60,821 nt of DNA from a virus. Taxonomy: Duplodnaviria > Caudoviricetes. The translations under genes and the position numbers were made by a program. Of this stretch, positions 1,454 to 37,936 are shown one piece after another (position 1 is the stretch's first letter; each line of letters opens with the position of its first letter). The notes below the pieces were generated by a model. The model was not told the origin of the DNA. It was given only the letters and a program-made list of their open reading frames with translations, and did not search any database. Location: IMG/VR virus record IMGVR_UViG_3300025030_000111, positions 1-60,821 of that record. One strand, 5' to 3'.

Positions 1454-2733
1454 GCGTTCTTTTTGAAAAGTACAAGACAAAGAGTTCCAACGGTTTAACT
1501 CTCTATCAAATTCCGATGGGAGAAGCCATAGACACCTTTTTAGAACTAGAGGAGGCGTATAAGAACTTTTCTAAACTTCCTTATAGTTCTGGCTGGTCGG
1601 TAGCAAGACAACAAATAGTAGAGCGTAGAGCAGAAATAAGAAAACTACTAGACAAATTTATTATACACGCCAGCTCATCAGAGTGAGGCAGCAAAAAGGA
1701 GTATAAATATGTGGCCATTTTCAAAGACGGCGCGTTCCTCAATGTCAACTGTTGTTCGTGCTCCCTCAGAAAAAGATCTGGAGGAAAGCGGACCAAAAAA
1801 ATACGAGCTGATAATCTATGCAGAGGCCGCCTCTAAAAGTGCTCTCGCCGGATTAATCGGAGAGGCGGCGGGCTATTTACGATTTGGGTCTGGAAATGGC
1901 AGATACTCCGACTCCAGGGGCTTCATAGAGTACCAAGCTAAGCCTGTAAAAGGGGAAATACGAGACACTGACGGGCCTTATATGATTCCTTATATCAGAA
2001 CTGAGATGCAGGTGTGGGATGACGAGGAGAGGCAGAGGAAAGAAGAATCAGAGAGAGACAACAAAAAAGGAGTATAAAAGCCATGACGGAATTCGATAAA
2101 TTGGGGGATTTCCTACATAAATTTATACTTCTCGTCGCAGAGAAGGAACAGGAGGAAAACTTCCTACGCGGAGGCATGAGCTTAAAATACTTGGAACTTC
2201 AGGAGGAGCTGGAACAGATGCAGGATCAGCTCAACCAAGTCGAGATTCGGAGAAGCAAGCCATGATCTGGTTAATCGTCTTAAATCTCATTATCCTGACC
2301 TGGGCGTTGGCCCTCTGGGTGATGTGGCGCTCTCGGAGGGGATAAAATGAAGTTACTTTTTTGTTCCAAGGGCTGTTTTGATATCATACGACTATTCCAT
2401 GAGGAGAGAAGTTGTGTCTGTGGTAAGGTCAAGGGGAGATATTTGAAGGACGGCCATTATGCTGAGTATTCAGGAGAGGGGGCGGTGCCCCTGGGAATGG
2501 ACAATCACGAATTTACACAGACTTTGAAACAGTGGCCAAACTGGAAGCACAGCAGAGGCTTAAGATTCGACGCCTTTTTTATCGGAAAAAATTGTAAAAC
2601 CTTCGTCAATTTGGATGCCCCGGCGGGGCCTGTTCAGGTCGATCCGGAAATCAGACAAATCGCCGACAGGGAGAAGATTGTCCAAGAGGTCATTGCTGAG
2701 TTAATAAAAAATGGAGTACTGACAGACCCATGA
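1450..2733 (+). CDS. cluster of small hypothetical phage genes (1450-1686, 1709-2077, 2083-2265, 2347-2733)
   Basis: Consecutive ORFs with SD motifs; 2347-2733 has the Cys motif CSKGC...CVCG. Confidence 0.6.
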
Positions 2734-4044
2734 GCGTTAGGTGGGTGGGGAAGCGTCATCCTCATTCTTTCCAAAAGTCCCCTGATAATTTAAAACTTGT
2801 GGAATAATTATGCTATAATAAAAGTATGGAGATCAAACAGACGATTCAAATTCTGATCGAACCTGACGAAGACCTCAGAGAAACTCTGGAAGCTTTTCGT
2901 CAAGTAAAACAGAGCTTGTCTAACCCCTGTTTTAATGCTGGTGATCCTCTCAATCAAATTGAGTTGCATAGATCCTCCTACTCTTCTGTGGCAGGGAAGG
3001 TTAACTCCCAAATGACCTGCTCTGCGATCCGTCTTGTGGCTGCTTCCTATATTACAGCCAAGCGGAATGGGCATAAGATTGATAAATTCTTCAACTTTAA
3101 ACGGAGACACGCCCTCTTCTTGATTGGTAAGAAGGGGCGGGACGCAGACTTTCGTAAAGACGGTACGCTCTCCATTTGGACAGTATCGGGGCGAAAGCGT
3201 ATTAACTACACTGTTCCTGAATACTTTAAACCCTTTCTCAGAGAGGCGAAAGAGATCGATTCGATTAATGTCGTCGATCGTAAGGGACGGCTGATCGGCC
3301 TTGTTTGCCTCGCCCTGGAAGTTCCTGATCCTAAAGGGATTCACCCCGTCGGCGTCGATCTTAATGAGACAAACGTTCTTGTGGCTGTAGATGCTGATAA
3401 CCAAGAATTGTTTATCCCTGGGATTTCCCACAGCGTCGCCAATACCAAGACCAGGAAGACCAAAAAGAGACTCCAGAGAAAACTTTCGAGCCGCAAGGCA
3501 GAGAAGCGAGATACCAGATCGGTACGCCGTCTTCTCAAACGGCTTGCTCGTAAGCAATCTAACAGGACTAAAACCTTCTGTCAAACCGTTGCTAAGCAGT
3601 TTGTCAGTTGGTGTCCCGAAGATTCGGTTATTGTTTTGGAAGATTTGAAAATTCCAAAAGTATCCAAGAAGATGAAGGCCAAGAAGGGCGTTCAACGTAG
3701 ACTCTCTCAGTGGGCTAGAGGAACTCTGACAACCTGGATTAACTCCAATGCTGAAAAGCGTGGAATCCTGGTGGTCAAAGTCAACCCCGCTTACACATCG
3801 CAGGACTGCTCCCGGTGTGGTTTGAGAGGAATTCGTCACCGTCATAAGTTCCTCTGTCCTTCCTGTTCCTTCTCGGCTCACGCTGACTTAAATGCGGCGG
3901 TAAACATTAGAAACCGCTATACTGTGCTCCGGCACAGTGGGGCTCTGTCAATGGCCCCTGAAGCCCTGCCTACAAGTACCGTTCAGGTACACTCTGGCGA
4001 GGGCAAACTCACGCGATACCGCAAGGTTAGCGGGAGTAATTGAT
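2732..4044 (+). mobile_element. IS200/IS605-family non-autonomous element carrying tnpB only (IS1341-like)
   Basis: Left-end hairpin at about 2744-2768 following CCAT; tnpB; structured right end terminating in AATTGAT; no tnpA. Deleting 2732-4044 restores GACCCATGAGTGAC. Boundaries are ambiguous by a few bp because ATGAG occurs at both sides. Confidence 0.82.
2826..4043 (+). CDS. tnpB: RNA-guided endonuclease TnpB
   Basis: RuvC-I VGVDLN, RuvC-II IVLEDL, Zn ribbon CSRCG/CPSC, RuvC-III ADLNAAVNI, all intact; extended -10 TGCTATAAT upstream. Confidence 0.95.
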   Translation: MEIKQTIQILIEPDEDLRETLEAFRQVKQSLSNPCFNAGDPLNQIELHRSSYSSVAGKVNSQMTCSAIRLVAASYITAKRNGHKIDKFFNFKRRHALFLIGKKGRDADFRKDGTLSIWTVSGRKRINYTVPEYFKPFLREAKEIDSINVVDRKGRLIGLVCLALEVPDPKGIHPVGVDLNETNVLVAVDADNQELFIPGISHSVANTKTRKTKKRLQRKLSSRKAEKRDTRSVRRLLKRLARKQSNRTKTFCQTVAKQFVSWCPEDSVIVLEDLKIPKVSKKMKAKKGVQRRLSQWARGTLTTWINSNAEKRGILVVKVNPAYTSQDCSRCGLRGIRHRHKFLCPSCSFSAHADLNAAVNIRNRYTVLRHSGALSMAPEALPTSTVQVHSGEGKLTRYRKVSGSN

Positions 4045-4064
4045 GAGTGACATCCTATTCTCTT
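3890..4064 (+). ncRNA. TnpB omegaRNA (reRNA) scaffold overlapping the tnpB 3' end; guide about 4045-4064 (GAGTGACATCCTATTCTCTT)
   Basis: Stacked hairpins (ACTGTGC/GCACAGT, GGGGC/GCCCC, GCCCT..AGGGC, ACTC..GAGT); loop GTCAAT can pair with the terminal ATTGAT; matches the known TnpB arrangement; 5' end is approximate. Confidence 0.7.
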
Positions 4065-5914
4065 ATCCTGTCCCTGCCGGAACCTTGGTAACGGCAGAGT
4101 TAGTGGTGGAGCTGGCTTACCGGGCCGCCTCGGAAGGTAAGATCGGCCGAGAGACGGCTAACCACCTCAAATGGCAGCAACTTCAGGAAATCCCTGAAGA
4201 CTGGAACGAGGATGTACAGGATATTGTTGAATTTTTTAGAGAGGGGTCGTAATGTCCAGTTCGATATCTGAAGACGATTGGAATAGAATTTGCTGGTACC
4301 TAGAAAATCATTACGATATCTCTATCCCCAAAGACGAGTTTAGCCCGTCCTATCGAGTCTGCTTTGCCCCTGACGGCAGGCAATGTATGGAGCTAAAAGC
4401 AACCGATCTAAGAACGGGGCAAGAATATCTTTTAACCACGGGCTACGATTCGGCCCCAACTAGCAAAAATGCTGGCCTTAATTGGGCCTTCGACCAAGTA
4501 AAACTTATTGTGAATTTGTTCATGTCTATTCATACCCCGAGCTGGATTGAGGAGTTAAAACTGTGATGAGCTGTTTAACTTTCTGGTGGACCACTCTAAT
4601 TTCAATTTATCTTCCTGCGGTTGTGGCCGTATTACTCTGTTTTCTTTTACTTGCCCCGGTAATTCTACTCTGTATGTTCTCCTTTTATCTAGCCCAAGAA
4701 AAGTTTCGTATCCCCTGGCTAACCGTTCCCATATACCTTTTCCTCTGTACCAACTATTTTATCTTCTTAGTCGTTACAATTCATACCCTAGGTAATTGCT
4801 TAGGAGTGGTACAATGAAAGATTATAGTTTAGTAAGCGATTCAGAACTGGCACAAGATTTATTGGACACTATCCAAGAATGTAAAAGACTGAAACAGGAA
4901 CTTGGAACCAGAGGCTACAGAGTTAATTTTCTAGGTGCAGAAAATGAAATTCCCTCCGTGAACGAGATTTACAAAAATGTTCCTCTGCTAGGAAGAAATA
5001 GGGAGGTAATCTACTATGAGTAAAACTACCAAACCTGCGGCGACGCACAATGCTGAGGTCGCTACTGAATACCAGAACCAGGAAGCTCAATCTTCTATTC
5101 CCCATGCCAAAAGTTCTCAATATTTCCAGGGGGCGGCCAAACCGTATGACAAAGATGTAAGTTGCGCTTGTGGAGGCCCCCTCTTCAAGTCAGAGCTAGG
5201 AATTACCCAATTTGATAAACCTGAAAAAGTATTTGTATTCTGTGGGCGCTGTGCCCAGGTATCTATTGTGTTGGAGAGCCAATAATGACTAGAGAGAAAG
5301 AAAAAACACAAGAAGAGCTTTTCCAGCTTACCGCCAATCGCCAGCAGTTTGAGCTAATCAGCCGGGGCCTGGAACTTCTATCTAGAGTTCGCGCAGGACA
5401 GTTAACCTATCTGCGAGATGAACTAATCGGTGTCGAAGGTGTCACCGAAGATTACGAAGCCCTCCACACTGCCCTAGAAGCCCTCCATCACACTGTCTTT
5501 CCCCAGGATGCCTATAACGAGTCCAACCATAGCCGGAAGGACTGCTGGGAATGCTATGATATCCAACAAGTTATCCGAAATGGGTTAAGCTGGTCCAAAT
5601 ACCCGGAGGGAGATTGTACGAGAAGTTTTGACGAGCCCATGCTCTTCGGCCAGGAGCCTCACCCATACCTGATGCGCTGGAACGGGACTGAGGCTACAAG
5701 GATTAGAAATCAAATAAACAAAAAATACTTCCTCCGGGATGCGTTTTCCGATCTCATCAAAACTTCCGACCTACAAGACGGGATTGAGATTCTGAAAAAA
5801 TGGAAGGAAGCTTACGATATCCAGGAAGAGGCCATGGCAGAGGCCCGGAAATTCTTCGGAGAAAAATCTTATGATACAATTATGGACTCTTTCAAAACTC
5901 CCGGGGAGGTTTAA
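4043..5914 (+). CDS. cluster of hypothetical genes (4043-4252, 4252-4566, 4566-4817 two-TM membrane protein, 4814-5023, 5016-5285 Zn-ribbon, 5285-5914)
   Basis: Translationally coupled ORFs; hydrophobic stretches in 4566-4817; CxCG...CxxC in 5016-5285. Confidence 0.6.
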
Positions 5915-6078
5915 TGAAGGGAATACTGACTGGTACGGACGGCTCTCGTGTTCTTTTAAAGATCGGCGAAGAGCAGGCTGTTACCGTGTGGCTGGAACCA
6001 CAAGAGGCACGTTTTCTAGCGGCTCAGTTGAATTTACTGTCTGATCAGGCGGAGGAAAGGTCAACTACCTCCCCCTAA
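5914..6078 (+). CDS. small hypothetical protein (54 aa, MKGILTGTDG...EERSTTSP), not in the ORF track
   Basis: RBS GGAGG; TAATG overlap with the upstream gene; the last codons are supplied by the micro-element at 6060. Confidence 0.6.
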   Translation: MKGILTGTDGSRVLLKIGEEQAVTVWLEPQEARFLAAQLNLLSDQAEERSTTSP

Positions 6079-6093
6079 AGGAGTTGGTCCGCG
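6060..6093 (+). mobile_element. 34-bp IscB/IS200-type micro-element or collapsed remnant
   Basis: Begins GTCAACTAC, as the iscB element does at 35723; CTCC-CCCTAAA-GGAG hairpin; ends TCCGCG (iscB right end has TCCCGCG); followed by ATGA; deleting it restores GAA AGA TGA with overlapping ATG. Confidence 0.65.
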
Positions 6094-6522
6094 ATGAAGT
6101 TATTTGGGTTTATGTTAGAGGACGCTAAGGGAATCTGGAAGAAATTCCAGGAGTCAGAGCGAAAGTTAAGAAATTCCCAGGAGTTGATCTACGCCCTAAT
6201 TCAGATTATCTTAATGCTGCGGTACGAATTGAGGCAGAAAAAGGAATATGAGTTATCTGATAGGGTAAGGAATTATCTAGCTCTCAAAGGTATTCAGGCA
6301 AAAGATCCGGGTAAGGGGGGTCAAGAGGTTTTTAGGTACACAATTTCTTTGGATAAACCAAAAGAACTAACACTTCTGACCGATTTAGAATGGATGAACC
6401 GAATGGGTGCCCTTGACTCTCTCTGCTGCCGGGACCGGCATTACGATCCGGTTGTTTGGTTAAAGCCTAAACCCAATAAGGAATTTGAAGCCTACAAGAA
6501 AGGTCTACAAGGAAAGGAGTAA
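6094..6522 (+). CDS. hypothetical protein with a CysRS C-terminal (anticodon-binding)-like segment
   Basis: LRYELRQKKEYELSDRVRNYLALKGIQAKD resembles the R..AR..KDW..AD.IRD.L...GI.L.D motif of CysRS. Confidence 0.5.
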   Translation: MKLFGFMLEDAKGIWKKFQESERKLRNSQELIYALIQIILMLRYELRQKKEYELSDRVRNYLALKGIQAKDPGKGGQEVFRYTISLDKPKELTLLTDLEWMNRMGALDSLCCRDRHYDPVVWLKPKPNKEFEAYKKGLQGKE

Positions 6523-6526
6523 ATAA

Positions 6527-7168
6527 ATGGAAAAAAGATTTACGCTTGGTTTTGGGCGTACAAAAGGAACAGAGTACTCACTGATTTCATTGCGTCAGGG
6601 CAAGGGATTGGAGATCTTCGGCTGGTCTAAAAACGAAAAAAAGGACTGGGTAGAACTTAATTTCGACACTTTTGCCCAACTTCGGGACTTCATAGCAATT
6701 CTTCAGAGAGAGCTGGACAATTATCTGACTCGTGATCTGAACGCTGAGAAGGAAGAGATCGAAAGAGTAACCTATATTCAAAATAATGACTACTATAACG
6801 AGGAAGCACACTCCGCCTTGGAGTTATTAGGAGGGGTTACGATTACCGGACCAACAGATAATGGGTGGTGGACAGCTAAAGCGAATGGAAGTGTTGTGGG
6901 ACCGAAAAATTTATCGACCATTATCGCTTCCGGGAAATGTAAAAACGGTGCCGTCAATCTACTCTTTGCCAATATTACGGCTCAGGATACCGTTCTTCAA
7001 CTTCCTGGTAGGGAAGGGCTGTTGAGATGGTCTGGAACCTATTGGGAACCCTGCTCTCCCCCGCCGAGTAATCCCTTTTACCGGGAACAGAACTCCAGAC
7101 TCCTTTCTGTTTTTACGGAGGGCGTACAGCCGGTTGGAATTCTCGATCTTTCGCCCACGGACGAATAA
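6527..7168 (+). CDS. hypothetical protein
   Basis: 213-aa ORF with RBS AAGGAG. Confidence 0.65.
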   Translation: MEKRFTLGFGRTKGTEYSLISLRQGKGLEIFGWSKNEKKDWVELNFDTFAQLRDFIAILQRELDNYLTRDLNAEKEEIERVTYIQNNDYYNEEAHSALELLGGVTITGPTDNGWWTAKANGSVVGPKNLSTIIASGKCKNGAVNLLFANITAQDTVLQLPGREGLLRWSGTYWEPCSPPPSNPFYREQNSRLLSVFTEGVQPVGILDLSPTDE

Positions 7169-7258
7169 AGACCCTACAAGGATAATCAATTTTATACTAG
7201 AAATAGCACAATAGGTTTTTCCGTCAGTAGTAAAAATAGCGGGAGCGGGTACACCACT

Positions 7259-7378
7259 CCGCCCATTCGCTGATTTTTTGGCGCCCCCCGCCCATTTTTG
7301 GGCCCATTTTTCCGCCCATTTTATTGGTTACATGCAGGAAACCTAAACTCTATGGTTTAATGCAGGTTATCTAATCTC
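7259..7378. repeat. four GCCCATT(TT) repeats with phased T-tracts, followed by two imperfect 27-bp tandem repeats
   Basis: (CC/G)GCCCATT at 7259, 7288, 7301 and 7312; TTGGTTACATGCAGGAAACCTAAACTC (7324-7350) vs ATGGTTTAATGCAGGTTATCTAATCTC (7352-7378). Confidence 0.7.
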
Positions 7379-7408
7379 CAGTCACTAGGCCAATAAGTGC
7401 CGTGGGGA

Positions 7409-7437
7409 TTGACACCGTAACCCGGTCTTGGTACGAT
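7409..7437 (+). promoter_or_regulatory. strong sigma70-type (early) promoter
   Basis: TTGACA-17 bp-TACGAT with an extended TG. Confidence 0.8.
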
Positions 7438-7509
7438 GGGGGTATCGATCAGTGCCGACTGACCGAAGACACGGGGTAGCGCCCGCCATAGTCGGCTAAG
7501 AACTGTATC

Positions 7510-7546
7510 GCCGTAACCAGACGGCATGAACCTTGACAACTGAATA
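7510..7546 (+). promoter_or_regulatory. putative boxB-boxA antitermination site in the leader RNA
   Basis: Hairpin GCCGT-AACCAG-ACGGC followed by GAACCTTGACAACTGAATA, resembling rrn boxA; no -10 lies 17 bp downstream of this TTGACA. Confidence 0.5.
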
Positions 7547-7596
7547 AGGTAGGAAGCTCCGACAGGCGCTACAAGCGCCATAAAGGAGCATCAAAT

Positions 7597-8133
7597 ATGT
7601 CTAAAAAGTCCTTAGCGCCTGTACACGCTATCCCCTCACGGGCACTTGCAATAGAGTCGAACGCCGCGCCTGCTGCCACGCTCATCGTATCGTCTGAGGC
7701 GGCCACAAACCGCTTTGAGACGTTGATAGAGCCCAAACAGGTTGGGCAAGACGCAGACGGTAACCCCGTCTACGCCGATGGTATGGCAGTGGATGTATCC
7801 GGTTTGGCCGGTTACTTCGCCGCCCTTTCCATCGAAAGTCTGTTACGGATTGACCGTCTGAAGTTTGACGGGGCGTTCGATAGCACAGCTTGGTTAACAG
7901 TAAGCCAGTATTTTCTCGCTATCTCTCCTGAACGTTCTAGCGACGTTCAGACTGATTCTGAGAAGATGACCGGCTCTAAATCCGGTAGCAAGCCCGCCGA
8001 AAGGCAATACCGCAAGCTGGCCATGCCGGACTTGCGCCGGAAAGAAACGCCTCACCGTGCCGCCTGCTTGCTTAAGGCAAAAGAGGCGGCAAGCAATGCC
8101 CTTAATTCAAAGTTATTCCCCACAAAGGAGTAA
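7597..8133 (+). CDS. hypothetical protein, first gene after the early promoter
   Basis: RBS AAGGAG; 178 aa. Confidence 0.7.
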   Translation: MSKKSLAPVHAIPSRALAIESNAAPAATLIVSSEAATNRFETLIEPKQVGQDADGNPVYADGMAVDVSGLAGYFAALSIESLLRIDRLKFDGAFDSTAWLTVSQYFLAISPERSSDVQTDSEKMTGSKSGSKPAERQYRKLAMPDLRRKETPHRAACLLKAKEAASNALNSKLFPTKE

Positions 8134-8138
8134 CTGTT

Positions 8139-8420
8139 ATGGGTATGGTTTATGCCCCTGTACCCAAACGAGTACAGGGAACCATGGCGAAATGGTTAAT
8201 TTCTCTCTCTATTGGGGACTTCCAACGAGTTATCAGGGAACTACTAGGTTCCCCGACTAAACTAGGTTCCCAATTCATCTTTCCCTGTACTGGCTTTAAG
8301 CGCCTAGCCTGGGAAGACCAACAAGGTGTGATTGACGCGCTCCAACATCGGTTGAGAAGCAAGCTCAATCAAGCGCAGTCCCAATGGGTTAACCGATGGT
8401 TGAATGCCATCACCTATTAG
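8139..8420 (+). CDS. hypothetical protein
   Basis: RBS AAGGAG; 93 aa; contains ACTAGGTTCCC twice. Confidence 0.5.
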   Translation: MGMVYAPVPKRVQGTMAKWLISLSIGDFQRVIRELLGSPTKLGSQFIFPCTGFKRLAWEDQQGVIDALQHRLRSKLNQAQSQWVNRWLNAITY

Positions 8421-8449
8421 TAAAATGAGCTTTCTACCTTATTCTTTGT

Positions 8450-8800
8450 CACTAGGTTCTAATTGGTTCTACTCGAATAGAATCAATTAGAGTCTAGCAA
8501 ACTCTTCCTAAGGTCACTTGGGAACCACGGCGGAATTGACCGTCAAGCGAGGTCATCCCCTCACGCTGACCACGTGAGACATAGGCCGGAGGTATAGCCT
8601 GTCAGGGGCTAAAGTACCCTGGATAGACAGGCGAAGGGGATGTATGGCAATTTGCCATACATCCACAAACCCGCATGGGGATTCATTCCCTATGATCGGG
8701 GACTTTTCCATGTCTACTTTTTATTTTTCCAGCCTAGACAGGATAATCACGGAGAGGACTTCTCCTCTTTCTCATTTGGGAGAGGAGAGGAGTAATTGAC
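8450..8800 (+). ncRNA. putative highly structured non-coding RNA (possibly an orphan TnpB-type omegaRNA)
   Basis: About 350 nt with no credible ORF and at least 7 hairpins; ends in a hairpin plus GGAGTAATTGAC, compared with the tnpB right end GGAGTAATTGAT. Confidence 0.45.
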
Positions 8801-9100
8801 TTAGATTCTATGTCTCTTACCCTTGCGCAAAAGACCTAACTCCATGAGAAGTGACCCAGTTCCTAATGAGTTCTGAGGAAGACCCTCCCCCCTCAATTTC
8901 TGAAGATCGTCTATGAGTTCAGATTTTGAGAAGAGGAGTTCAGGAGTAATTAGATTTTCTATCCCCTCCAACTCTAAGATGAGATTTATAATAGTATTAG
9001 GGAGAAGATTATGGTCTTTGTGGGCCACGCCTATAATCCTAATCTTCTGCTTGCTCTGTTCAGTTAATTTCAATCCTTGAGTATCGTAAAATATGGTCAT
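8801..9100 (-). CDS. hypothetical protein
   Basis: RBS AGGAG on the minus strand; 99 aa; downstream of the RHH-like gene. Confidence 0.55.
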   Translation of the reverse strand: MTIFYDTQGLKLTEQSKQKIRIIGVAHKDHNLLPNTIINLILELEGIENLITPELLFSKSELIDDLQKLRGEGLPQNSLGTGSLLMELGLLRKGKRHRI

Positions 9101-9116
9101 AACTAGCTCCTAGCTC

Positions 9117-9137
9117 TGTGTTTCAAATTGAAACACA
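9117..9137. promoter_or_regulatory. palindromic operator-like site 1 (TGTGTTTCAA-A-TTGAAACACA)
   Basis: Perfect 10-bp arms; near-identical copy at 9379. Confidence 0.65.
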
Positions 9138-9141
9138 AGGT

Positions 9142-9345
9142 CTAATCCCAGAAAGGATCGTGTGTGTTATCGCTTTGATCCTGCGTCAATCTCGTTACCT
9201 GTTGTTCCACAACCTGGATATCATCAGATTCCAGAATGCGGTTAATGACGGCGTTAGACGAGGTTCCCCATCTTCCTGACAACCTCTCTAGCATATAGAG
9301 GGCCTTGTCAGAGAAGCGGACGCTCTTGATGTTTGGTCTTGTCAT
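9142..9345 (-). CDS. small ribbon-helix-helix (Arc/CopG-like) DNA-binding protein
   Basis: KSVRFS beta-strand, helix, then GTSSNAVINRIL; RBS AGGAGG; extended -10 TGCTATACT upstream. Confidence 0.65.
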   Translation of the reverse strand: MTRPNIKSVRFSDKALYMLERLSGRWGTSSNAVINRILESDDIQVVEQQVTRLTQDQSDNTHDPFWD

Positions 9346-9378
9346 GTCTTATACCTCCTAATAAGAGTATAGCATGGC

Positions 9379-9398
9379 TGTGTTTCAAGTTGAAACAC
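9379..9398. promoter_or_regulatory. palindromic operator-like site 2, overlapping the promoter of the RHH gene
   Basis: TGTGTTTCAA-G-TTGAAACAC, covering the -35/spacer region of the minus-strand TGCTATACT promoter. Confidence 0.65.
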
Positions 9399-9439
9399 GA
9401 AGCTAAAACATAGAGAGGACGCCGTTCTTTCTTTTTAGG

Positions 9440-9720
9440 AACTGATGTGAGTAAGTTAAAGCTCCTCGTAAGGAACCTTAGCTTGTCAAAATCCCAAGGA
9501 ATCTATATGATTCCGGCCCACTATGTCGGCTTGTAATTAGGGATAATTGGCATGATGGTTTTGAAGAGGAGAAACGGCGAAACACCTGTAGACTTGCGGG
9601 TCTACAGTATTTAGAAGATCAGAAATCTCTATTTGAGACGGCTTCGTGTTTCTAATTCTCAAGGCCAAACTTGAATGTGGTAAAGAATTGGATTGTCTGA
9701 AGGTGAGACAGGAAACTCAA
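9440..9720. ncRNA. second structured intergenic block (putative ncRNA or processing leader)
   Basis: Long-range stem GGTTTTGA..AGAAACGGCGAA / TTCGTGTTTCT..TCAAGGCC enclosing CTGTAGAC-TTGCGG-GTCTACAG; further hairpins near 9450-9515. Confidence 0.35.
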
Positions 9721-10156
9721 TAGAGACGCCAGATATTAGAAAGAAAAGGATAATCTATCTCTAGTAAGATATCCTGTGAACGAGCAGGAATAAGAATATC
9801 TTACAGGAACTAGGTTATCCTTATCTATCTCTAGAATAAGAGAGTATTCATGCGGGTTAGATATCTGTATGAATACTCTCTTTTCCTTTTCATTAGGTAT
9901 CTTATGGAAAGGAGTGAGGAACTTCCTAATTAGATCGTCTTTGTACTTTTTAATTAGGTTTGAGCATGACCAAATTAGCATAGACCGGATCATGCTGGAT
10001 CGGTTCATAGCCTCCATACAGTTTCCTAGTGGAGATTGTATAGAGGTTATAGCCTATGTGAATAGGTTTAACCTTGTAATAGAGGATAGAACTGTAGAAA
10101 ATCGGGAGTATGGGTTCTGCCCATTCTGTCGGATTAAGTAAAAGGAGGGTTAAATT

Positions 10157-16798: not shown

Positions 16799-16801
16799 AG
16801 A

Positions 16802-17971: not shown

Positions 17972-18469
17972 ATGCGGGGCTACTGCGGAGTTGGGCTAGT
18001 CAATCCCAAACACGAGGTCAATGTCGGCCATGTTCTACGAGCAGCGGGATGCTTCCAAATCCAGTGGGTTGCTGCAACAGGAAAACGGTATAAGCGGTCA
18101 GCCACTGACACCATGTCCGCCTATCGGCACATCCCCCTGCTATCGGGAATAGATGATCTTAAAAAGATTATTCCCTTTGACTGCATACCAGTCGCAGTGG
18201 ACCTCGTAGAGGGAGCAAAAAGTGTACATAATTATGTGCATCCTGAACGCGCCTTTTATATCTTTGGACCGGAAGACGGGACACTCGGAAAGGAGGTACT
18301 GTCCTGGTGCCGGGATGTCATTTATATTCCAACGAGGGGCTGCCTTAATTTATCAGCGGCAGTCTCAATCATACTCTATGACCGGCAGCAAAAACAGGCG
18401 GGGGCCGAGTCCAGAGAAAAGTACTTCTTTAAGGAAGAAAAAATCACAAGAAGGGGAGGGTACAGGTGA
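17972..18469 (+). CDS. SpoU/TrmH-family (SPOUT) RNA methyltransferase
   Basis: NVGHVLRAAGCF, IFGPEDG and IYIP...CLNLSAAV motifs. Confidence 0.9.
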   Translation: MRGYCGVGLVNPKHEVNVGHVLRAAGCFQIQWVAATGKRYKRSATDTMSAYRHIPLLSGIDDLKKIIPFDCIPVAVDLVEGAKSVHNYVHPERAFYIFGPEDGTLGKEVLSWCRDVIYIPTRGCLNLSAAVSIILYDRQQKQAGAESREKYFFKEEKITRRGGYR

Positions 18470-33191: not shown

Positions 33192-35126
33192 ATGACAACT
33201 GTTTTAGATAAAAAGTATAGGCTCATAGAAGACACAGAAGAGGCGATGAGGATTCTTTCTGATCTTGCTCGGTTTCCTACAGTCGGACTCGACTTTGAGA
33301 CTGCTTTGAGGCCAGGATATTTGAAAGTATTTAAATATAATTGGGAGTGGGAGGGCACTGGCAAGAATCGACACGAGGAGAACTGGGCGACTGATATCAG
33401 AACAGCAGACATCCGACTAATGCAAATTGCCACTCCGGACGGCAGACAGTATGTCTTTGACATCTTTAAAATTCCCATTGGTAACTTTAAAGATTACTTA
33501 GAGTCTGGGGTGCAATTAATTGCCCACAATGCCAAGTTTGAAGCCTCATTTCTTCTAAAGTACGGAATCTCTCCGATAAATTGGGGAGATACGATGATTG
33601 CCCACCAGCTTATTACAGCGGGGCTCCCAGCCAAGCATGGCCTGGAGGAGGTTGTTTGGGAGGTTTTTCAAGTTAAATTAGACAAGACTGAGCAACGTTC
33701 AGATTGGTCTGGGGAGCTGAGAGAGTCCCAATATGATTATGCTGCTCAGGACACAACTTATCTTCTTCCTCTTTGGGATCTTTTTTATGGAGTCTGTCAA
33801 GCTGACGGATTGTTGGATGTTCTGGCCCTGGAGATGCGGACTCTTCCAGCAACAACGGCAATGGAGGCTAATGGGGTCTACGTCAATCTTCAGAGGACTG
33901 AGCTTCTTCGTCAAGCTTACGCGGAGGAGATGGCGAGCTATGCTGGTAAGGTTATGGAGATTGTTCGAGCGGCAAATCTTACGGTCAAAAATGAAAAGTT
34001 CCTAAACTCCTCTCAACAATTGATTCAAGCTTACACTGAATTAGGGCTGGATCTGGTTAAGTTGGAAAAGGGAGAATTTGATGAGGGTGGCAAGCCAAAG
34101 TATTCAACAGATGCCAAGTATCTTTCAACGATCAACCATCCCTTTACCAACAACCTGCTCAAGTATCGGGAGTTTAAGAAGTTGATCTCAACCTATCTGG
34201 ATAACTTTCCTCTGATGCGGCACCCTCTGACTGGGCGAATGCACTGTAATTGGATGCAGGCATTTACTGATACCGGACGTTTTTCATGCAGTGCCTTAAA
34301 TTTAATGAACATTCCCAAAGAGGGGGCAATGAGGGAACTTTTTGAGGCCCCGCCTGGATACCTACTTTGTCTTGCAGATTTTGAGCAAATAGAGGTTAAG
34401 CTCGCTGCGATCCTTAGTTGTGATCCAGTTATGTCAGAAGTATTGAAACAGCCTGGAGCTGATCTTCATGCTGAGACGGCGATGAAACTGTTGGGGGCAC
34501 ATCCGGATGATCCTGACTGGAAAGAGAGCCGGGCCATTGGGAAGAACAGCGTATTCTCGGGGATGTACGGAAGTGGGGCCGAGGCACTGGCTGAAAAATC
34601 CAAGGGGAGGTTTACCTTGGCCCAGGCCCAGGAATTTCTCACAACTTTCTTCAATCACTATAAAGGATTCTCTCAGTATCTGAGCAGTGTTCGACACGGC
34701 GCTGTTTTTGGTAAGAAAGAGAGCCGGTCGATCTTGGGTAGGAGGCGCAGTTACCTACCCAAGGAGTGGGAAATTGACTATATCACGAGCCGTAATAAGG
34801 GGAAAGTCAAGAAGATATTTTTAACAGCAACGGAACGAGAGGCCGGTAATCATCCCTTTCAAAGTAGCGCCGCCGATTTTGTCAAATCTGCCATGTGCGA
34901 AGCCTATTATGTTCACAACTTAGAGGTTGTTATAAACTGTCATGATGAACTTCTCTGCTACACCAGGGCGGAAAACTCAGAGGAGGATAGAGCAAAGTTG
35001 GAGATGGCCATGGTTGAGGGAGCTAATAAAGTAATTTCCAAGGCCGTTAAACGAGGTTACAAGATAGACTCCTCTGTTCCTATTATGGCCGAGGCTAAAG
35101 TTGTTCAGTCTTGGCGGGATAAATAG
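33192..35126 (+). CDS. polA: family A DNA polymerase with 3'-5' exonuclease
   Basis: Exonuclease DFET, HNAKFE, YAAQD; TGRFS; motif A ADFEQIE; motif B RAIGKNSVFSGMYG; motif C HDEL. Confidence 0.95.
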   Translation: MTTVLDKKYRLIEDTEEAMRILSDLARFPTVGLDFETALRPGYLKVFKYNWEWEGTGKNRHEENWATDIRTADIRLMQIATPDGRQYVFDIFKIPIGNFKDYLESGVQLIAHNAKFEASFLLKYGISPINWGDTMIAHQLITAGLPAKHGLEEVVWEVFQVKLDKTEQRSDWSGELRESQYDYAAQDTTYLLPLWDLFYGVCQADGLLDVLALEMRTLPATTAMEANGVYVNLQRTELLRQAYAEEMASYAGKVMEIVRAANLTVKNEKFLNSSQQLIQAYTELGLDLVKLEKGEFDEGGKPKYSTDAKYLSTINHPFTNNLLKYREFKKLISTYLDNFPLMRHPLTGRMHCNWMQAFTDTGRFSCSALNLMNIPKEGAMRELFEAPPGYLLCLADFEQIEVKLAAILSCDPVMSEVLKQPGADLHAETAMKLLGAHPDDPDWKESRAIGKNSVFSGMYGSGAEALAEKSKGRFTLAQAQEFLTTFFNHYKGFSQYLSSVRHGAVFGKKESRSILGRRRSYLPKEWEIDYITSRNKGKVKKIFLTATEREAGNHPFQSSAADFVKSAMCEAYYVHNLEVVINCHDELLCYTRAENSEEDRAKLEMAMVEGANKVISKAVKRGYKIDSSVPIMAEAKVVQSWRDK

Positions 35127-35471: not shown

Positions 35472-35741
35472 TTGTTGGAGTTACGAGAAAGAAGGAGTTC
35501 TTGCGTGATTGACGATCCGAGTTTTCGTCTTCCGGTCTTTTACCCTATTGAAAATAAGATATTTCAATATCAGAAAGTTCTGGATGGTTGGGCGTTCTCC
35601 AGCCAGAGAAAGGTGGCGGAAGAGCTGGTCAAAGCTCTGGAGGTGGCGCTGTACTGGAAAAGGCGGTTTGAACAAGCGGAGGAGTTGTATGGAGGGTTAA
35701 AGCTTAAGGAGTTAGAAAAAGTGTCAACTACTCCGCCTTGA
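35472..35741 (+). CDS. hypothetical protein whose C-terminus (STTPP) is supplied by the IscB element
   Basis: ORF runs into GTCAACTAC; the empty allele would end EKV-stop. Confidence 0.5.
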   Translation: MLELRERRSSCVIDDPSFRLPVFYPIENKIFQYQKVLDGWAFSSQRKVAEELVKALEVALYWKRRFEQAEELYGGLKLKELEKVSTTPP

Positions 35742-35985
35742 AAGGCGGAGCTTGAGGAAAACTTCAGGCTCGGGTTGACCAGGAAAAGCGGTACCCAATC
35801 CGCTACGTTGTAGATAGGTTAAAGACCGACGTTGGGATGCTTCCTCAGTTCCAACCTCTCGAAGCTCCGGTTGCAGACACGCAACAGGGTAAGCACGAAA
35901 CGGATCGGAGCCTAATGCCGGTCTACAACATTTCCGAGGGGAGAGGTTCGTAAGAACCCGTTACAAGGCCCGTAAGGGCAATTAA
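35703..35985 (+). ncRNA. IscB omegaRNA (HEARO-like): guide about 35703-35722, scaffold from 35723
   Basis: GTCAAC...GTTGACCAG, CTACGTT, GATGCTTCCTCAGT, ACATTTCCGAGGG and terminal CCCGTAAGGG hallmarks directly upstream of iscB. Confidence 0.85.
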
Positions 35986-37384
35986 AAGGAGGATGGCCCA
36001 TGGCCGTCTGTGTTTTGGATCGTCACAGCAAGGCTTTGATGCCCTGCAGCGAAAAACGAGCCCGATTGCTGCTGGAACGGGGTCGGGCAAGGGTGCATCG
36101 GCTGATGCCGTTTGTGATTCGGCTGATAGACCGTGAAGTAGAGGAATGCGAATTTCAACCGCTGCGCCTGAAGTGTGATCCTGGCAGCCGAACCACGGGT
36201 ATGGCGCTGGTGCGTATTCAGGAGGATGGAGGAACAGTCGTACTTCACTTGTTCGAGCTCAAGCATCGGGGCCGCGCTATCTCAGAAGCCCTGACAGGCC
36301 GACGGGCCAAGCGTCGGCGTCGGCGCAATGCCAATCTGCGTTACCGGGCTCCCCGTTTCTTGAATCGCCGCAGACCGCCTGGTTGGCTGGCACCCAGCCT
36401 GCAACACCGGGTGGACACGACGATGGTCTGGGTTCATCGGCTGCAACAGTGGGTACTCCTCACGGGAATCAGTATAGAGCTGGTGCGTTTCGATACCCAG
36501 GCCCTGGATAACCCGGCTATCGAAGGAGCGGAGTATCAGCAAGGGACGCTGCAAGGTTACGAAGTGCGGGAATACCTCTTGGAGAAATGGGGCCGGAAGT
36601 GCGCTTACTGTGATGGGGCAGGGATGCCGCTGCAAATTGAGCATATCCATCCCAAGAGCCAAGGGGGGTCCCACCGCATCAGCAATCTCACTCTGGCTTG
36701 TGCTGGCTGTAACCTCAACAAAGGCCCTCAGGATATCCGTTTGTTTCTGGCTCCCCATCCCCAGCGATTGGCCCGTATCCTGGCCCAGGCCAAAGCCCCC
36801 TTGCAGGATGCCGCAGCGGTCAACAGTACCCGCTGGGCTCTGTTCAAGGCACTCAAGGGCACGGGCCTGCCAGTGGAAACCGCCTCCGGGGGACGAACCA
36901 AGTGGAACCGCTCCCGCTTCGGGATTCCCAAGACCCATGCCCTGGATGCGGTGTGTGTCGGCTCCGTAGCCAAGGTGAGCCTCTGGCAGCGCCCCACCTT
37001 GGCTATCAAAGCCACAGGCCGGGGAGCCTATCAGCGGACCCGCCTGAGCGGCCATGGATTTCCCCGTGGCTATCTGATGGGTCAGAAACAAGTGCAGGGG
37101 TTCCAGACCGGGGATCGCGTCAGAGCCATTGTCCTTAAAGGCCAAAGGGCCGGAACTTACCTCGGTCGCGTTGCTGTTCGCCGTAGCGGCAGTTTCAACA
37201 TCCAGACTGATAGCGGGGTGGTGCAGGGAATCAGTTACAAATACTGTCAATTGCTCCAGCGCAACGATGGCTATGGGTATGGGCAACACCACGATTTCAA
37301 GAAAGGAGAAGCGGGAAGAGGGCAGGCTGCGCCCGATGCGCTATCCCTCCCCGGCATGAATGCCGAGGTTTCCCGCGCAATCTG
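35723..37384 (+). mobile_element. IS200/IS605-family IscB (OMEGA) element without TnpA
   Basis: End hairpins CTCCGCCT-TGAA-AGGCGGAG and CGGCA-TGAA-TGCCG; more GC-rich than the flanks; followed by ATGA; deleting it restores GAA AAA GTA TGA with overlapping ATG. Confidence 0.9.
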
Positions 37385-37385
37385 A
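36000..37385 (+). CDS. iscB: RNA-guided endonuclease IscB (RRXRR + HNH)
   Basis: ALMP (PLMP domain); RuvC-I CDPGS; Arg-rich bridge helix; RuvC-II ELVRFD; HNH CAYC..IEHIHP..NLTLAC..CN; RuvC-III THALDA. Confidence 0.96.
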   Translation: MAVCVLDRHSKALMPCSEKRARLLLERGRARVHRLMPFVIRLIDREVEECEFQPLRLKCDPGSRTTGMALVRIQEDGGTVVLHLFELKHRGRAISEALTGRRAKRRRRRNANLRYRAPRFLNRRRPPGWLAPSLQHRVDTTMVWVHRLQQWVLLTGISIELVRFDTQALDNPAIEGAEYQQGTLQGYEVREYLLEKWGRKCAYCDGAGMPLQIEHIHPKSQGGSHRISNLTLACAGCNLNKGPQDIRLFLAPHPQRLARILAQAKAPLQDAAAVNSTRWALFKALKGTGLPVETASGGRTKWNRSRFGIPKTHALDAVCVGSVAKVSLWQRPTLAIKATGRGAYQRTRLSGHGFPRGYLMGQKQVQGFQTGDRVRAIVLKGQRAGTYLGRVAVRRSGSFNIQTDSGVVQGISYKYCQLLQRNDGYGYGQHHDFKKGEAGRGQAAPDALSLPGMNAEVSRAI

Positions 37386-37936
37386 TGAGGGAGATTCAAC
37401 TGGTTGGTAGAAAATACCAATATTTTTCTGTCGGAGGTAAACAGAAAAAGAAATTAGTGGGTCAGGAAACTGCGGTTGTCAAAGTAGACGATGAGGATGT
37501 CGCTGGGCTGAAGATGTGGGAGTGGAAATTCGCCCCCAGAAAGAGTGGCGGAGGCTATGCTTATCGAGATGTCTATGACGCATCAGGTAGGCGGATTCGC
37601 AAGTTGATGCACCGGGAGATTATGAAGGCCCCTCCGCACCTTTTGGTTGATCACATTGATGGAGATGGGCTGAACAATCAAAAGTCTAATCTCCGCCTGG
37701 TTACTCCTACGCAGAATCAACAAAATCAGACAACGGCGAGAAGAGACAACAAGTCCGGTGTTAAAGGAGTGAGCTGGGACAAGTTTAGAAACCGTTGGCG
37801 GGTTTCGATTACAGTAAACGGAATGAATAAAACTCTCCTCTATACTGAAGATCTTGAGCTGGCCAAAGAAAAATATGACGCGGCGGCGAAGTTGTATTTT
37901 GGGGAGTACGCCAGAACGAACGAGGAGGCGAACTGA
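37385..37936 (+). CDS. HNH endonuclease with AP2 domain
   Basis: MHREIM...VDHIDGDGLNNQKSNLR; SGVKGVSW AP2 domain. Confidence 0.9.
   Translation: MREIQLVGRKYQYFSVGGKQKKKLVGQETAVVKVDDEDVAGLKMWEWKFAPRKSGGGYAYRDVYDASGRRIRKLMHREIMKAPPHLLVDHIDGDGLNNQKSNLRLVTPTQNQQNQTTARRDNKSGVKGVSWDKFRNRWRVSITVNGMNKTLLYTEDLELAKEKYDAAAKLYFGEYARTNEEAN

What the first reader, a model, noticed from the sequence alone, without database searches (positions are those of the whole stretch)
2728..37389. Three IS200/IS605-type units all occupy ATGA stop/start overlaps without destroying a phage gene
Seen in sequence: removing tnpB 2732-4044 gives GAC CCA TGA with overlapping ATG AGT; removing 6060-6093 gives GAA AGA TGA with ATG AAG; removing iscB 35723-37384 gives AAA GTA TGA with ATG AGG. 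Each reconstructed empty site is a translational-coupling junction. In the filled state the upstream ORF still ends within a few codons (TGA kept, STTSP-stop, STTPP-stop), and the downstream ATG survives, overlapped by the tnpB or iscB stop codon in the two full elements. Established: ATGA-type TAMs are known for some IscBs, and IS200/IS605 elements insert next to their TAM. Inference: in a genome with almost no intergenic space, these junctions act as safe harbours, and the two intact RNA-guided nucleases could home into co-infecting relatives that carry the empty allele.
Basis: partly seen in the sequence, partly recalled or inferred. Interest (0 to 1): 0.72.

Follow-up and report, generated by a model that had tools for sequence, protein, structure and literature searches.

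The report
Guide-RNA nuclease transposons at phage gene junctions
A soil and groundwater phage carries a TnpB element, an IscB element and a probable 34-base remnant from one transposon clade, each sitting where one gene stops and the next starts, probably because the clade's target motif looks like a start codon; the elements themselves are ordinary.

Summary
The sequence facts hold. A TnpB element lies at 2732-4044 and an IscB element with its HEARO guide RNA at 35723-37384. Both nucleases keep their catalytic motifs.

- **TnpB right end:** a covariance model built from 38 relatives' right ends places it at 4044.
- **Shared ends:** the same model also hits the reverse complement of the HEARO start, so both elements use one IS200/IS605 end type.
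- **Target motif:** in relatives the flank next to the left end is YCAY. That reads CCAT/CCAC beside TnpB elements and RTGR in iscB orientation. All three window sites fit.
- **IscB empty allele:** it exists in public data.
- **TnpB site:** no empty allele was found. The one relative strain lacks a 2.3-kb block there, and the element's left-end hairpin is missing.
- **34-nt unit (6060-6093):** it is only probably a relic. It shares a 9-mer, reading frame and geometry with the IscB end, but an independent model missed it and no empty form is on record.
- **"Safe harbour":** this is plausible as target motif plus selection. The genome is about 10% non-coding, not devoid of spacers.
- **Homing:** untested.

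The parts
2347..2733 (+). Phage ORF upstream of the TnpB element (128 aa); its stop TGA at 2731-2733 is kept
   Evidence: On 29 contigs in the protein collection. Relatives with another C-terminus (..MRAGVIHD) are on 39 contigs.
2728..2731 (+). CCAT, the inferred TAM on the 5' side of the TnpB element's left end
   Evidence: CCAT in 12 and CCAC in 7 of 25 relatives at the aligned place, about 9-11 nt before the left-end hairpin (read by eye).
2732..2825 (+). Left end of the TnpB element: atypical, without the two-tier hairpin; promoter-like TTAAAA..TATAAT just before tnpB
   Evidence: DNA fold -3.6 kcal/mol, against -10 to -18 for most of the 18 relatives folded and -15.3 for the IscB element's left end. 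The 3' part aligns with relatives (GGGGAAGCGYC..CTTTC).
2826..4043 (+). tnpB (405 aa), apparently intact
   Evidence: Pfam OrfB_IS605 and Cas12f1-like_TNB. D178, E272, D354 and the four zinc-finger cysteines are invariant columns in 32 homologues. PDB relatives are TnpB/Cas12f.
3908..4044 (+). TnpB omega-RNA scaffold and transposon right end, lying entirely inside the 3' end of tnpB; ends TTGAT
   Evidence: Model R1, built from 38 relatives' right ends, matches at 78.2 bits, E 2.6e-26, full length, with the last model base at 4044.
4045..4060 (+). Flank that the TnpB omega-RNA guide would copy (inferred; the guide length is assumed)
   Evidence: Position directly 3' of the right end. Rule from Karvelis 2021 and Meers 2023 (abstracts and passages). 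Not tested here.
4043..4252 (+). Phage ORF downstream of tnpB (69 aa); its ATG is completed by the last two bases of the element
   Evidence: On 33 contigs, none longer than the window.
5914..6078 (+). Phage ORF (54 aa) that ends with STTSP inside the 34-nt unit
   Evidence: On 43 contigs. The 49-aa form without the tail is not in the collection.
6060..6093 (-). 34-nt unit: probably a relic of the right-end hairpin of an IscB-type element plus 6 nt; it also carries an AAGGAG ribosome-binding site for the next gene
   Evidence: Exact 9-mer shared with 35723-35731. R1 hit 6168-6060 on the minus strand at 9.3 bits, E 0.19. Hairpin -8.8 kcal/mol, z -2.15. Against: no hit with R2 or Rfam.
6094..6522 (+). 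Phage ORF (142 aa) starting ATGAAG; the reverse complement, CTTCAT, fits the TAM
   Evidence: TTCAT is the published TAM of GstIscB.
35505..35741 (+). Phage ORF upstream of the IscB element (78 aa from the GTG at 35505); its last five residues STTPP and its stop lie in the element
   Evidence: The 78-aa forms are on 29+12 contigs and the 73-aa forms ending ..ELEKV on 6+1 contigs.
35707..35722 (+). Flank that the IscB omega-RNA guide would copy (inferred; the guide length is assumed)
   Evidence: Lies directly 5' of HEARO model position 1. Not tested.
35723..35949 (+). HEARO / IscB omega-RNA scaffold; its first ~33 nt are the transposon right end read backwards (..GTAGTTGAC on the minus strand)
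   Evidence: RF02033 at 116 bits. R1 hit 35797-35723 on the minus strand at 26.9 bits, E 8e-8. R2 at 31.5 bits.
36000..37385 (+). iscB (461 aa), apparently intact; the ORF runs through the left end and its stop is TG of the element plus A of the flank
   Evidence: Pfam RRXRR 218 bits and HNH. PDB IscB matches in which the CDPG, IELVRFD, EHIHP..N and THALDA motifs can be read. The closest relative, L004, has the same arrangement.
37319..37384 (-). Left end of the IscB element (read on the minus strand), with the two-tier hairpin (inner stem about 37349-37368)
   Evidence: DNA fold -15.3 kcal/mol with the same architecture as the TnpB relatives' left ends. R2 partial hit 37349-37368.
37385..37936 (+). 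Downstream ORF (183 aa), HNH_3 + AP2, like a free-standing homing endonuclease; it starts ATGAGG, whose reverse complement is CCTCAT
   Evidence: Pfam. PHROG 99 HNH endonuclease, E 1e-40.

Best explanation
The window is a fragment of a phage from groundwater and soil metagenomes. It has been colonised by non-autonomous elements (no tnpA) of a single IS200/IS605 clade.

Shown:
- One element carries tnpB, with its guide-RNA scaffold buried in the 3' end of the gene.
- One carries iscB with a HEARO RNA, and is read on the opposite transposon strand.
- Both share the same right-end hairpin, which ends TTGAC or TTGAT.
- In relatives, both element types lie beside a YCAY motif at the left end.

Inferred:
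- The clade's transposase inserts 3' of YCAY. Read on the other strand this is RTGR, that is, a start codon plus a purine.
- An IscB element co-oriented with the genes therefore lands directly in front of an ATG(A).
- A TnpB element lands inside CC-AT|GA.
- At an ATGA stop/start overlap both neighbours survive. The upstream ORF finds a stop at once (GA of the TnpB left end) or after five codons in the right-end hairpin.
- The downstream ATG is kept in the IscB case or rebuilt by the AT that ends the TnpB element.
- The nuclease ORF ends on a TGA that overlaps that ATG, so translation can stay coupled and phage transcripts supply the guide RNA.
- Insertions elsewhere in coding sequence are lost by selection.

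The individual sites:
- The IscB insertion is recent or reversible, because alleles with and without it coexist.
- The TnpB element has lost its left-end hairpin. It can probably no longer be moved by a transposase, though nuclease and guide look intact.
- The 34-nt unit is most likely what is left of a second IscB-type element.
For: Identity of the elements:
- Pfam, Rfam HEARO at 116 bits, catalytic columns.

Borders:
- R1 ends at 4044.
- HEARO model position 1 falls at 35723.
- The 73-aa allele ends exactly where removal of 35723-37384 predicts.

One clade:
- R1, a TnpB right-end model, hits the reverse complement of the HEARO start at E 8e-8.
- The IscB left end folds like the TnpB relatives' left ends.

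Target motif:
- 20 of 25 TnpB relatives have YCAY at the aligned place: 12 CCAT, 7 CCAC, 1 TCAT (by eye).
- Near-identical Ktedonobacter IscB copies stop being identical after GTGAT (L092/L093/L097), GTGA (L100/L105) and GTGG (L095/L098). Single copies show ATGAA, ATGAT, ATGGT and GTGAT.
- Viral relatives show ATGGCG (L004) and ATGAGG (L005).
- The published GstIscB TAM is TTCAT.

Other points:
- A stop codon inside the right-end motif is a family trait. It is seen in L016, L023, L028, L033, L036, L040, L041, L077 and L078.
- The filled junctions are real. Contigs from four other studies bridge 2732, 4044 and 6060-6093 without differences.
- No Y1 transposase was found among the 112 ORFs scanned.
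- Rough enrichment. There are 8 present plus 3 reconstructed ATGA overlaps, against 82 intergenic and 31 gene-edge YCAT sites. Three of three at overlaps has a chance of about 1e-3 if all non-disruptive sites were equal.
Against: - No DNA of an empty allele could be read. Two exact-pattern scans found nothing and near records are withheld.
- Site 1 has no empty allele. The relative L009 lacks 2706-5015 (TnpB plus four small genes) and ends its ORF with TAA and no overlap. The element may therefore have arrived inside a recombined block.
- The TnpB left end starts GAG, unlike any relative. ATGAG is repeated at both borders, which would also fit a microhomology join.
- The last base of the right end is T, where the relatives have C.
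- The right-end regex forced YTGAC, so that invariance is partly by construction. Independent support comes only from the copy comparisons.
- Unit 2 failed the R2 and Rfam tests. As it stands it is also an ordinary TAA-AGGAG-spacer-ATG junction.
- The enrichment rests on three sites chosen after the fact, on crude ORF calls, and on the assumption that intergenic insertions are neutral.
- Among the viral IscB relatives only L004 abuts a gene start. L005 and L006/L008 sit at the 3' end or stop codon of the upstream ORF, and L007 is unclear.
Confidence: 0.7

Rival explanations
1. RNA-guided homing, not transposase, places and keeps the elements. In a mixed infection the IscB (or TnpB) complex cuts the empty allele, and repair copies the element and its flanks from the carrier genome.
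For: - Filled and empty IscB alleles with otherwise identical flanking protein coexist.
- Both nucleases and guide scaffolds look intact, while no tnpA is in the window.
- The TnpB element has no left-end hairpin yet is kept.
- The flank 26 nt upstream of the TnpB element switches haplotype, and mosaic forms P0131/P0135 exist, as co-conversion would give.
- The phage has its own RecA/UvsX-like recombinase.
- The concept is in print.
Against: - Nothing here shows cleavage or biased inheritance.
- The polymorphism is equally explained by precise TnpA insertion or excision in the host.
- The contig is only 58% complete, so tnpA could lie elsewhere or in the host.
- L009's junction does not match the TnpB guide-equivalent flank.
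Confidence: 0.35
2. Site 2 is not an insertion. 6060-6093 is the native end of ORF 5914-6078 plus an ordinary spacer with a ribosome-binding site, and the shared 9-mer is chance.
For: - R2 lists 13 hits at E<=10 and none is at 6060.
- Rfam at E<=10 finds no HEARO there.
- The R1 hit has E 0.19.
- An equal local score (14) occurs inside the helicase gene.
- The 54-aa form is on 43 contigs and the 49-aa form is absent.
- About 0.46 exact 9-mer matches are expected by chance in the window (my arithmetic).
Against: - The 9-mer stands in the same reading frame and at the same distance from an ORF end as at the IscB element.
- A hairpin with the loop TAAA follows it, as in HEARO starts of relatives.
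- Removal gives an ATGA overlap preceded by GGAGG.
- The flank reads TTCAT on the other strand.
- My rough joint chance is about 1e-3.
Confidence: 0.3
3. The TnpB element did not insert at this junction in this phage. It came in with a 2.3-kb block (2706-5015) by recombination with another phage, or was joined at the ATGAG microhomology.
For: - L009 lacks the whole block and has about 630 nt of other genes further on.
- TnpB and the four small genes share the same contig distribution, with longest contig 60821.
- There is a 5-nt repeat at both borders.
- The left end is truncated.
Against: - CCAT stands exactly at the left border, as in relatives.
- The right end is complete to its last base.
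- A block transfer does not exclude an earlier TAM-directed insertion in the donor phage.
Confidence: 0.4
4. Domestication: the phage uses the nucleases for its own ends (cutting competitors or host DNA), and the position merely secures expression.
For: - Both genes are co-oriented with the phage genes and overlap the next start codon.
- The TnpB element is immobile-looking but intact.
Against: - The guide-equivalent flanks are the phage's own junctions.
- IscB is dispensable, since an empty allele exists.
- No sign of a retargeted guide.
Confidence: 0.1

Closest known systems
IS200/IS605-family elements with IscB and TnpB in Geobacillus stearothermophilus (ISGst2, ISGst5; Meers et al., preprint 10.1101/2023.03.14.532601, abstract and passages read)
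   Same: - Non-autonomous elements with related ends.
- One TAM is read both by the transposase and by the nuclease.
- The guide copies the flank at the right end.
- The IscB TAM TTCAT is the reverse complement of the ATGAA-type flank seen here.
   Different: - The TAM here is YCAY (CCAT/TCAT) rather than TTTAT/TTCAT.
- The host genome is a phage.
- Activity was not tested here.
- The TnpB element lacks a left-end hairpin.
Ktedonobacteria / Chloroflexota TnpB and IscB elements
   Same: - TnpB is 54-61% identical and IscB 50-58%.
- Same right-end hairpin ending TTGAC.
- Same two-tier left-end hairpin.
- Same YCAY flank.
- The tnpB stop lies inside the right-end motif.
   Different: - Those are multi-copy chromosomal elements (51-52 IscB matches per genome in two of the genomes).
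- The window's TnpB right end finishes with T instead of C, which rebuilds an ATG.
Free-standing homing endonuclease genes of T4-like phages (Seg, Mob), as summarised in review PMC13565253 (passages read)
   Same: - A selfish nuclease gene wedged between conserved phage genes.
- Presence/absence polymorphism.
- Possible co-conversion of flanks.
- One such HNH-AP2 gene lies directly after iscB.
   Different: - Target recognition here would be by RNA guide plus TAM.
- The elements also have transposon ends.
tnpB in cyanophage A-1(L) (preprint 10.64898/2026.02.14.705889, abstract and passages read)
   Same: A phage-borne tnpB that is absent from close relatives; a long ORF on the reverse strand of tnpB (here 2808-3881, 357 aa).
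   Different: That copy is identical to host copies and lies beside an invertible segment. No junction logic or IscB is described in the passages I read.

Membership tests
IS200/IS605 TnpB (OMEGA) element | TnpB protein with RuvC D-E-D triad and zinc finger | tested here: met
   Pfam PF01385 and PF07282 above cut-off. D178, E272, D354, C328, C331, C344 and C347 are invariant in 32 homologues.
IS200/IS605 TnpB (OMEGA) element | Structured right end / omega-RNA scaffold at the 3' end of tnpB, ending at the element border | tested here: met
   R1 at 78.2 bits, full length, 3908-4044. The alignment A2 shows compensatory hairpins.
IS200/IS605 TnpB (OMEGA) element | Subterminal hairpin in the left end | tested here: not met
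   Fold -3.6 kcal/mol with no two-tier hairpin; most of the 18 relatives folded reach -10 to -18. About 25 nt are missing relative to L022.
IS200/IS605 TnpB (OMEGA) element | Conserved TAM directly 5' of the left end | tested here: met
   CCAT at 2728-2731. CCAT in 12 and CCAC in 7 of 25 relatives (by eye). Function as a TAM was not tested.
IS200/IS605 TnpB (OMEGA) element | No target-site duplication | tested here: inconclusive
   ATGAG stands at both borders. This may be the AT of TAM and right end plus a chance GAG, or a microhomology join.
IS200/IS605 autonomous element | Y1 transposase TnpA | tested here: not met
   No Y1_Tnp match among 112 ORFs at E<=1e-4 to 0.01. The contig is 58% complete.
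IscB (OMEGA) element | IscB protein: RRXRR/PLMP N-terminus, split RuvC, HNH | tested here: met
   PF14239 at 218 bits and PF01844. Matches solved IscBs (best E 1.8e-42), with RuvC and HNH motifs visible in the alignment.
IscB (OMEGA) element | HEARO omega-RNA directly upstream of iscB | tested here: met
   RF02033 at 116 bits against a gathering score of 83, model 1-211.
IscB (OMEGA) element | Transposon ends on both sides and a TAM beyond the left end | tested here: met
   Right end: R1 hit on the minus strand, E 8e-8. Left-end hairpin -15.3 kcal/mol. The flank ATGAGG is the reverse complement of CCTCAT; relatives show RTGR.
IscB (OMEGA) element | Precise presence/absence at one site | tested here: met
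   Protein forms ..EKVSTTPP (41 contig observations) and ..EKV (7). DNA not seen.
IscB / TnpB nuclease activity | RNA-guided cleavage of TAM-flanked target | not testable with these tools
IS200/IS605-derived relic or PATE (unit 2) | Recognisable transposon end(s) | tested here: inconclusive
   Exact 9-mer and R1 E 0.19 in favour. R2 and Rfam misses and an equal chance score elsewhere against.

The most novel reading that the evidence does not exclude
This IS200/IS605 clade may be built for gene junctions.
- Its target motif YCAY is a start codon (RTG) plus purine on the other strand.
- Its right-end hairpin carries stop codons for the gene it interrupts.
- Its nuclease ORFs run to the very end of the element and borrow their stop from the right-end motif or the TAM (TG|A, TGAT|G).

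An insertion at a stop/start overlap would then be silent for both neighbours and expressed by read-through and translational coupling. In phages such elements would spread as RNA-guided homing elements between co-infecting genomes. The 34-nt relic at 6060 would be a scar allele that separates target from TAM and so resists re-invasion.
Probability: 0.2. Interest if true: 0.7.

Novelty: new member of a known kind. Interest (0 to 1): 0.5.

Why it matters
- It gives a natural, polymorphic test case for whether OMEGA nucleases act as homing endonucleases between phages. The review I read treats this only as a theoretical possibility.
- The system offers an intact IscB element, its exact empty allele in the same habitats, and a predicted guide and TAM.
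- It also shows why a start-codon-like TAM lets a transposon live in a densely coding genome without breaking genes. That bears on how phages acquire and keep RNA-guided nucleases.

Tried and rejected
Searches for phage relatives:
- The annotated phage collection gave no match with the first 20 kb.
- IMG/VR scans with three phage proteins found no relative.
- Exact 32-nt left-flank pattern scans of viral and metagenome contigs gave 0 hits. Not even the window's own record appeared, so near records are withheld.

Reads:
- I laid the four partial holders X17-X20 on 1500-7500.
- They hold only short identical contigs plus one 90-95% variant at 2103-2586.
- No joint skips 2732-4044 or 6060-6093. 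This is not evidence of absence.

TnpB relatives:
- The single-protein scans of viral and genome contigs found none. The alignment-based scan worked.

Alternative border considered:
- A right border of the TnpB element at 4052 (GAGTGAC) was rejected.
- R1 ends at 4044, and the spacing from hairpin to TGAY fits only 4044.
- A border at 4052 would remove the downstream start codon and shift the frame.

Other:
- The downstream gene of L004 is unrelated to the window's HNH gene. IscB and that gene therefore do not travel together.
- The earlier-findings look-up returned nothing.
- The HEARO description is not in the main text of Weinberg 2010 (PMC2864571). I did not read its supplements.
- On prior print: searches found no paper describing OMEGA elements at stop/start overlaps in phages. 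The library is partial.

Full report
**What the window is**

The window is a whole IMG/VR virus record of 60,821 bases. It is linear and CheckV rates it 58% complete. PHROGs and Pfam show a phage replication and nucleotide-metabolism module. It includes DNA polymerase (33192-35126), an SNF2 helicase, a DnaB-like helicase, a primase, a RecA/UvsX-like recombinase, a RuvC-like resolvase, ribonucleotide reductase, dUTPase and two RNA ligases. Nearly all genes are on the + strand.

Seventeen of 20 listed public runs, from groundwater and soil metagenomes, hold more than half of the sampled words of 1500-7500. No annotated phage is similar at the DNA level.

**The observation**

- The ORF 2347-2733 ends with TGA at 2731-2733.
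- tnpB (2826-4043) ends with a TGA that overlaps the ATG at 4043.
- ORF 5914-6078 ends ..RSTTSP-stop inside the 34 nt at 6060-6093, and the next gene starts at 6094.
- The ORF ending at 35741 reads ..VSTTPP-stop into the element that begins at 35723.
- iscB (36000-37385) ends with a TGA that overlaps the ATG at 37385.

**Identity of the two large units**
- The 405-aa protein matches OrfB_IS605 and the Cas12f1-like TNB domain.
- In an alignment of 32 homologues (55-86% identical) the RuvC residues D178, E272 and D354 and the four zinc-finger cysteines are invariant and present in the window.
- The 461-aa protein matches RRXRR (218 bits) and HNH.
- It also matches solved IscB structures, and the RuvC and HNH motifs can be read in that alignment.
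- Rfam's HEARO model matches 35723-35949 at 116 bits, above the gathering score of 83, from model position 1.
- No Y1 transposase was found among the 112 ORFs scanned. Both elements are therefore non-autonomous as far as this fragment shows.

**Borders, and the finding that both elements belong to one clade**

An alignment-based scan of species genomes returned 80 loci with TnpB relatives. They come mostly from Ktedonobacteria and other Chloroflexota, with some cyanobacteria and methanogens.
- In multi-copy genomes the copies stop being alike directly after ..TTGAC.
- Fifty loci carry GGGCAAGC, a hairpin, then GTnnYTGAC. The regex itself required YTGAC.
- A covariance model of the last 110 nt of 38 such right ends (R1) matches the window at 3908-4044 (78.2 bits, E 2.6e-26). 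It is full length and its last position falls at 4044.
- The last base is T where the relatives have C.
- The same model also matches the reverse complement of the HEARO start (35797-35723, 26.9 bits, E 8e-8). It matches the reverse complement of the 34-nt unit only weakly (9.3 bits, E 0.19).

So the 'left' end of the IscB element, as the window is written, is an IS200/IS605 right end read backwards. This is what an IscB guide RNA that starts in the flank requires. The far end of the IscB element, read on the minus strand, folds into the same two-tier hairpin as the left ends of the TnpB relatives (-15.3 kcal/mol). The TnpB element's own left end does not (-3.6 kcal/mol). It is about 25 nt shorter than in L022 and keeps only the 3' half of the motif.

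**The target motif**

TnpB relatives:
- The left-end hairpin is preceded, 9-11 nt upstream, by CCAT in 12 and CCAC in 7 of 25 loci.
- The rest show TCAT once, CTAC twice, and CCGC, ACAT and unclear once each.
- Nothing further upstream is conserved. I read this by eye from the alignment.
- The window has CCAT at 2728-2731.

IscB elements:
- Three sets of near-identical Ktedonobacter copies lose identity after GTGAT, GTGA and GTGG. Single copies show ATGAA, ATGAT, ATGGT and GTGAT at the homologous distance from the hairpin.
- Viral relatives show ATGGCG (L004) and ATGAGG (L005), and by spacing GTGATC (L006/L008).

Read on the transposon strand these are all YCAY. The published TAM of GstIscB, TTCAT 'oriented 5' of the left end' (passages of preprint 10.1101/2023.03.14.532601), is the same kind of motif.

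The three window sites read CCCAT on the + strand, and CTTCAT and CCTCAT on the - strand.

**Empty alleles**

Site 3 (IscB):
- The 90%-identity cluster of the ORF upstream of the IscB element has four members.
- Two are 78-aa forms ending ..ELEKVSTTPP, on 29 and 12 contigs.
- Two are 73-aa forms ending ..ELEKV, on 6 ENA contigs and one 59,827-bp JGI contig.
- The short forms are exactly what removal of 35723-37384 predicts, and no other border gives that product.
- I could not read the DNA. Exact-pattern scans returned nothing, not even the window itself.

Site 2:
- The 54-aa form is on 43 contigs, including a 107.5-kb one.
- The 49-aa form is not in the collection.

Site 1:
- The flanking proteins cannot tell the alleles apart.
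- The one relative I could fetch (L009, 78-95% identical in the shared stretches) lacks window 2706-5015.
- That stretch comprises the last nine codons of the upstream ORF, the TnpB element and four small genes.
- L009's upstream ORF ends on TAA without an overlap.
- Mosaic forms of the upstream protein exist (P0131, P0135).
- Contigs from four other studies bridge both TnpB junctions and the 34-nt unit unchanged. None skips them.

**Why gene junctions**

With a YCAY target, a co-oriented IscB element lands directly in front of RTGR. That sequence is often a start codon: 44 of 95 + strand ORF starts in my crude calls are ATGR, and 33 of them ATGA. A TnpB element lands after CCAT.

What happens at an ATGA overlap:
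- IscB case: the upstream ORF runs into the right-end hairpin and stops after five codons. The ATG is untouched. The iscB ORF, which runs through the whole left end, stops on TG plus the A of that ATG.
- The closest relative, L004 (63% identical), has the same TGATG next to an unrelated 184-aa ORF. L105 and L109 also end on the TGA of the flank.
- TnpB case: the stop of tnpB lies in the right-end motif, as in nine relatives. The terminal AT rebuilds the ATG, and the first GA of the element rebuilds the TGA.
- The T for C at 4044 and the unusual GAG start of the left end are what make this work. They may be later changes, or signs of a microhomology join (ATGAG stands at both borders).

How much more than chance:
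- My greedy ORF calls give 8 ATGA and 4 GTGA four-base overlaps among 94 consecutive + strand gene pairs. They leave 10.4% of the window non-coding.
- There are 894 YCAT sites outside the elements. For 82 of them the insertion point is intergenic, and for 31 it lies at a gene edge.
- If all non-disruptive sites were equally good, three of three at the 11 overlaps (8 present plus 3 reconstructed) would have a chance near 1e-3.
- This is post hoc, rests on three events, and ignores regulatory sequence in spacers. I take it as a hint that expression by read-through and coupling matters, not as proof.
- In the other viral contigs the IscB elements sit at the 3' end (L005) or in the stop codon (L006/L008) of the upstream ORF, not at overlaps.

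**The 34-nt unit**

For a relic:
- The exact 9-mer, with only two exact copies in the window.
- The same frame and tail.
- A hairpin with a TAAA loop like HEARO starts of relatives.
- The TTCAT flank.
- The GGAGG-ATGA junction that removal gives.

Against:
- An independent model of 14 relatives' HEARO starts finds the IscB element (31.5 bits) but not this unit among 13 hits at E<=10.
- Rfam misses it.
- An equal local alignment score occurs inside the helicase gene.
- No empty form is on record.
- As it stands the sequence is a normal stop, Shine-Dalgarno, start junction.

I put the relic reading at about 0.7.

**Comparison with what is known**

These are ordinary members of the IS200/IS605 OMEGA families. 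Already in print:
- TAM sharing between transposase and nuclease, and restorative homing.
- Homing into co-infecting phages as a theoretical case.
- tnpB in a cyanophage.

My four literature searches found nothing on two points:
- a start-codon-like TAM placing such elements at stop/start overlaps in a phage;
- a natural filled/empty IscB polymorphism in a phage population.

The library is partial, and I read passages, not whole papers.

**Verdict**

The kind is known. The interest is moderate, mainly as a ready-made test system for RNA-guided homing in phages.

Noticed in passing
window 2808-3881 (-) and 36282-37292 (-): Long open frames on the reverse strand of tnpB (357 aa) and of iscB (336 aa). 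A 2026 preprint reports a translated reverse-strand ORF in a cyanobacterial and cyanophage tnpB.
   Followed up: no
window 2706-5015 versus L009 10471-10614: Haplotype switch. The relative strain lacks the TnpB element and four small genes, and has about 630 nt of other small genes between the homologues of 5016-5285 and 5285-5914. Mosaic forms of the upstream protein exist.
   Followed up: partly
window 37385-37936: An HNH_3 + AP2 protein, like a free-standing phage homing endonuclease, lies directly after iscB. Two selfish nuclease genes are stacked behind the DNA polymerase region.
   Followed up: partly
window 3908-4044 and 35723-35797: The terminal hairpin of the TnpB guide-RNA scaffold and the first hairpin of HEARO are the same transposon right end on opposite strands (R1 hits both).
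   Followed up: yes
L105, L109 (Ktedonobacter), L004, window 37383-37385: In several IscB elements of this clade the ORF runs through the left end and takes its stop codon wholly or partly from the TAM (RTGA).
   Followed up: partly
L096 3010-3100 (-), L112 902-1018 (+): Group II intron domain matches (RF00029) next to IscB copies in Ktedonobacter genomes.
   Followed up: no
window 16145-21178: Imm5-like protein, MoxR-type AAA ATPase, SpoU-family methylase and a VWA-domain protein in a row: an unusual accessory block for a phage.
   Followed up: no
window 50817-52520: The ribonucleotide reductase large subunit matches its Pfam barrel domain in three separate stretches. This may mean an insertion or a divergent form.
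   Followed up: no
window 29949-29968 (-): TTCAACTACTCCCGCCTGAA on the minus strand inside the helicase gene resembles the IscB element's first 20 nt but lacks the second hairpin arm. I take it as chance.
   Followed up: partly
window 7168-11084: Stretch with small ORFs on the minus strand and the largest gaps between called genes. The coding density is lower here than elsewhere.
   Followed up: no
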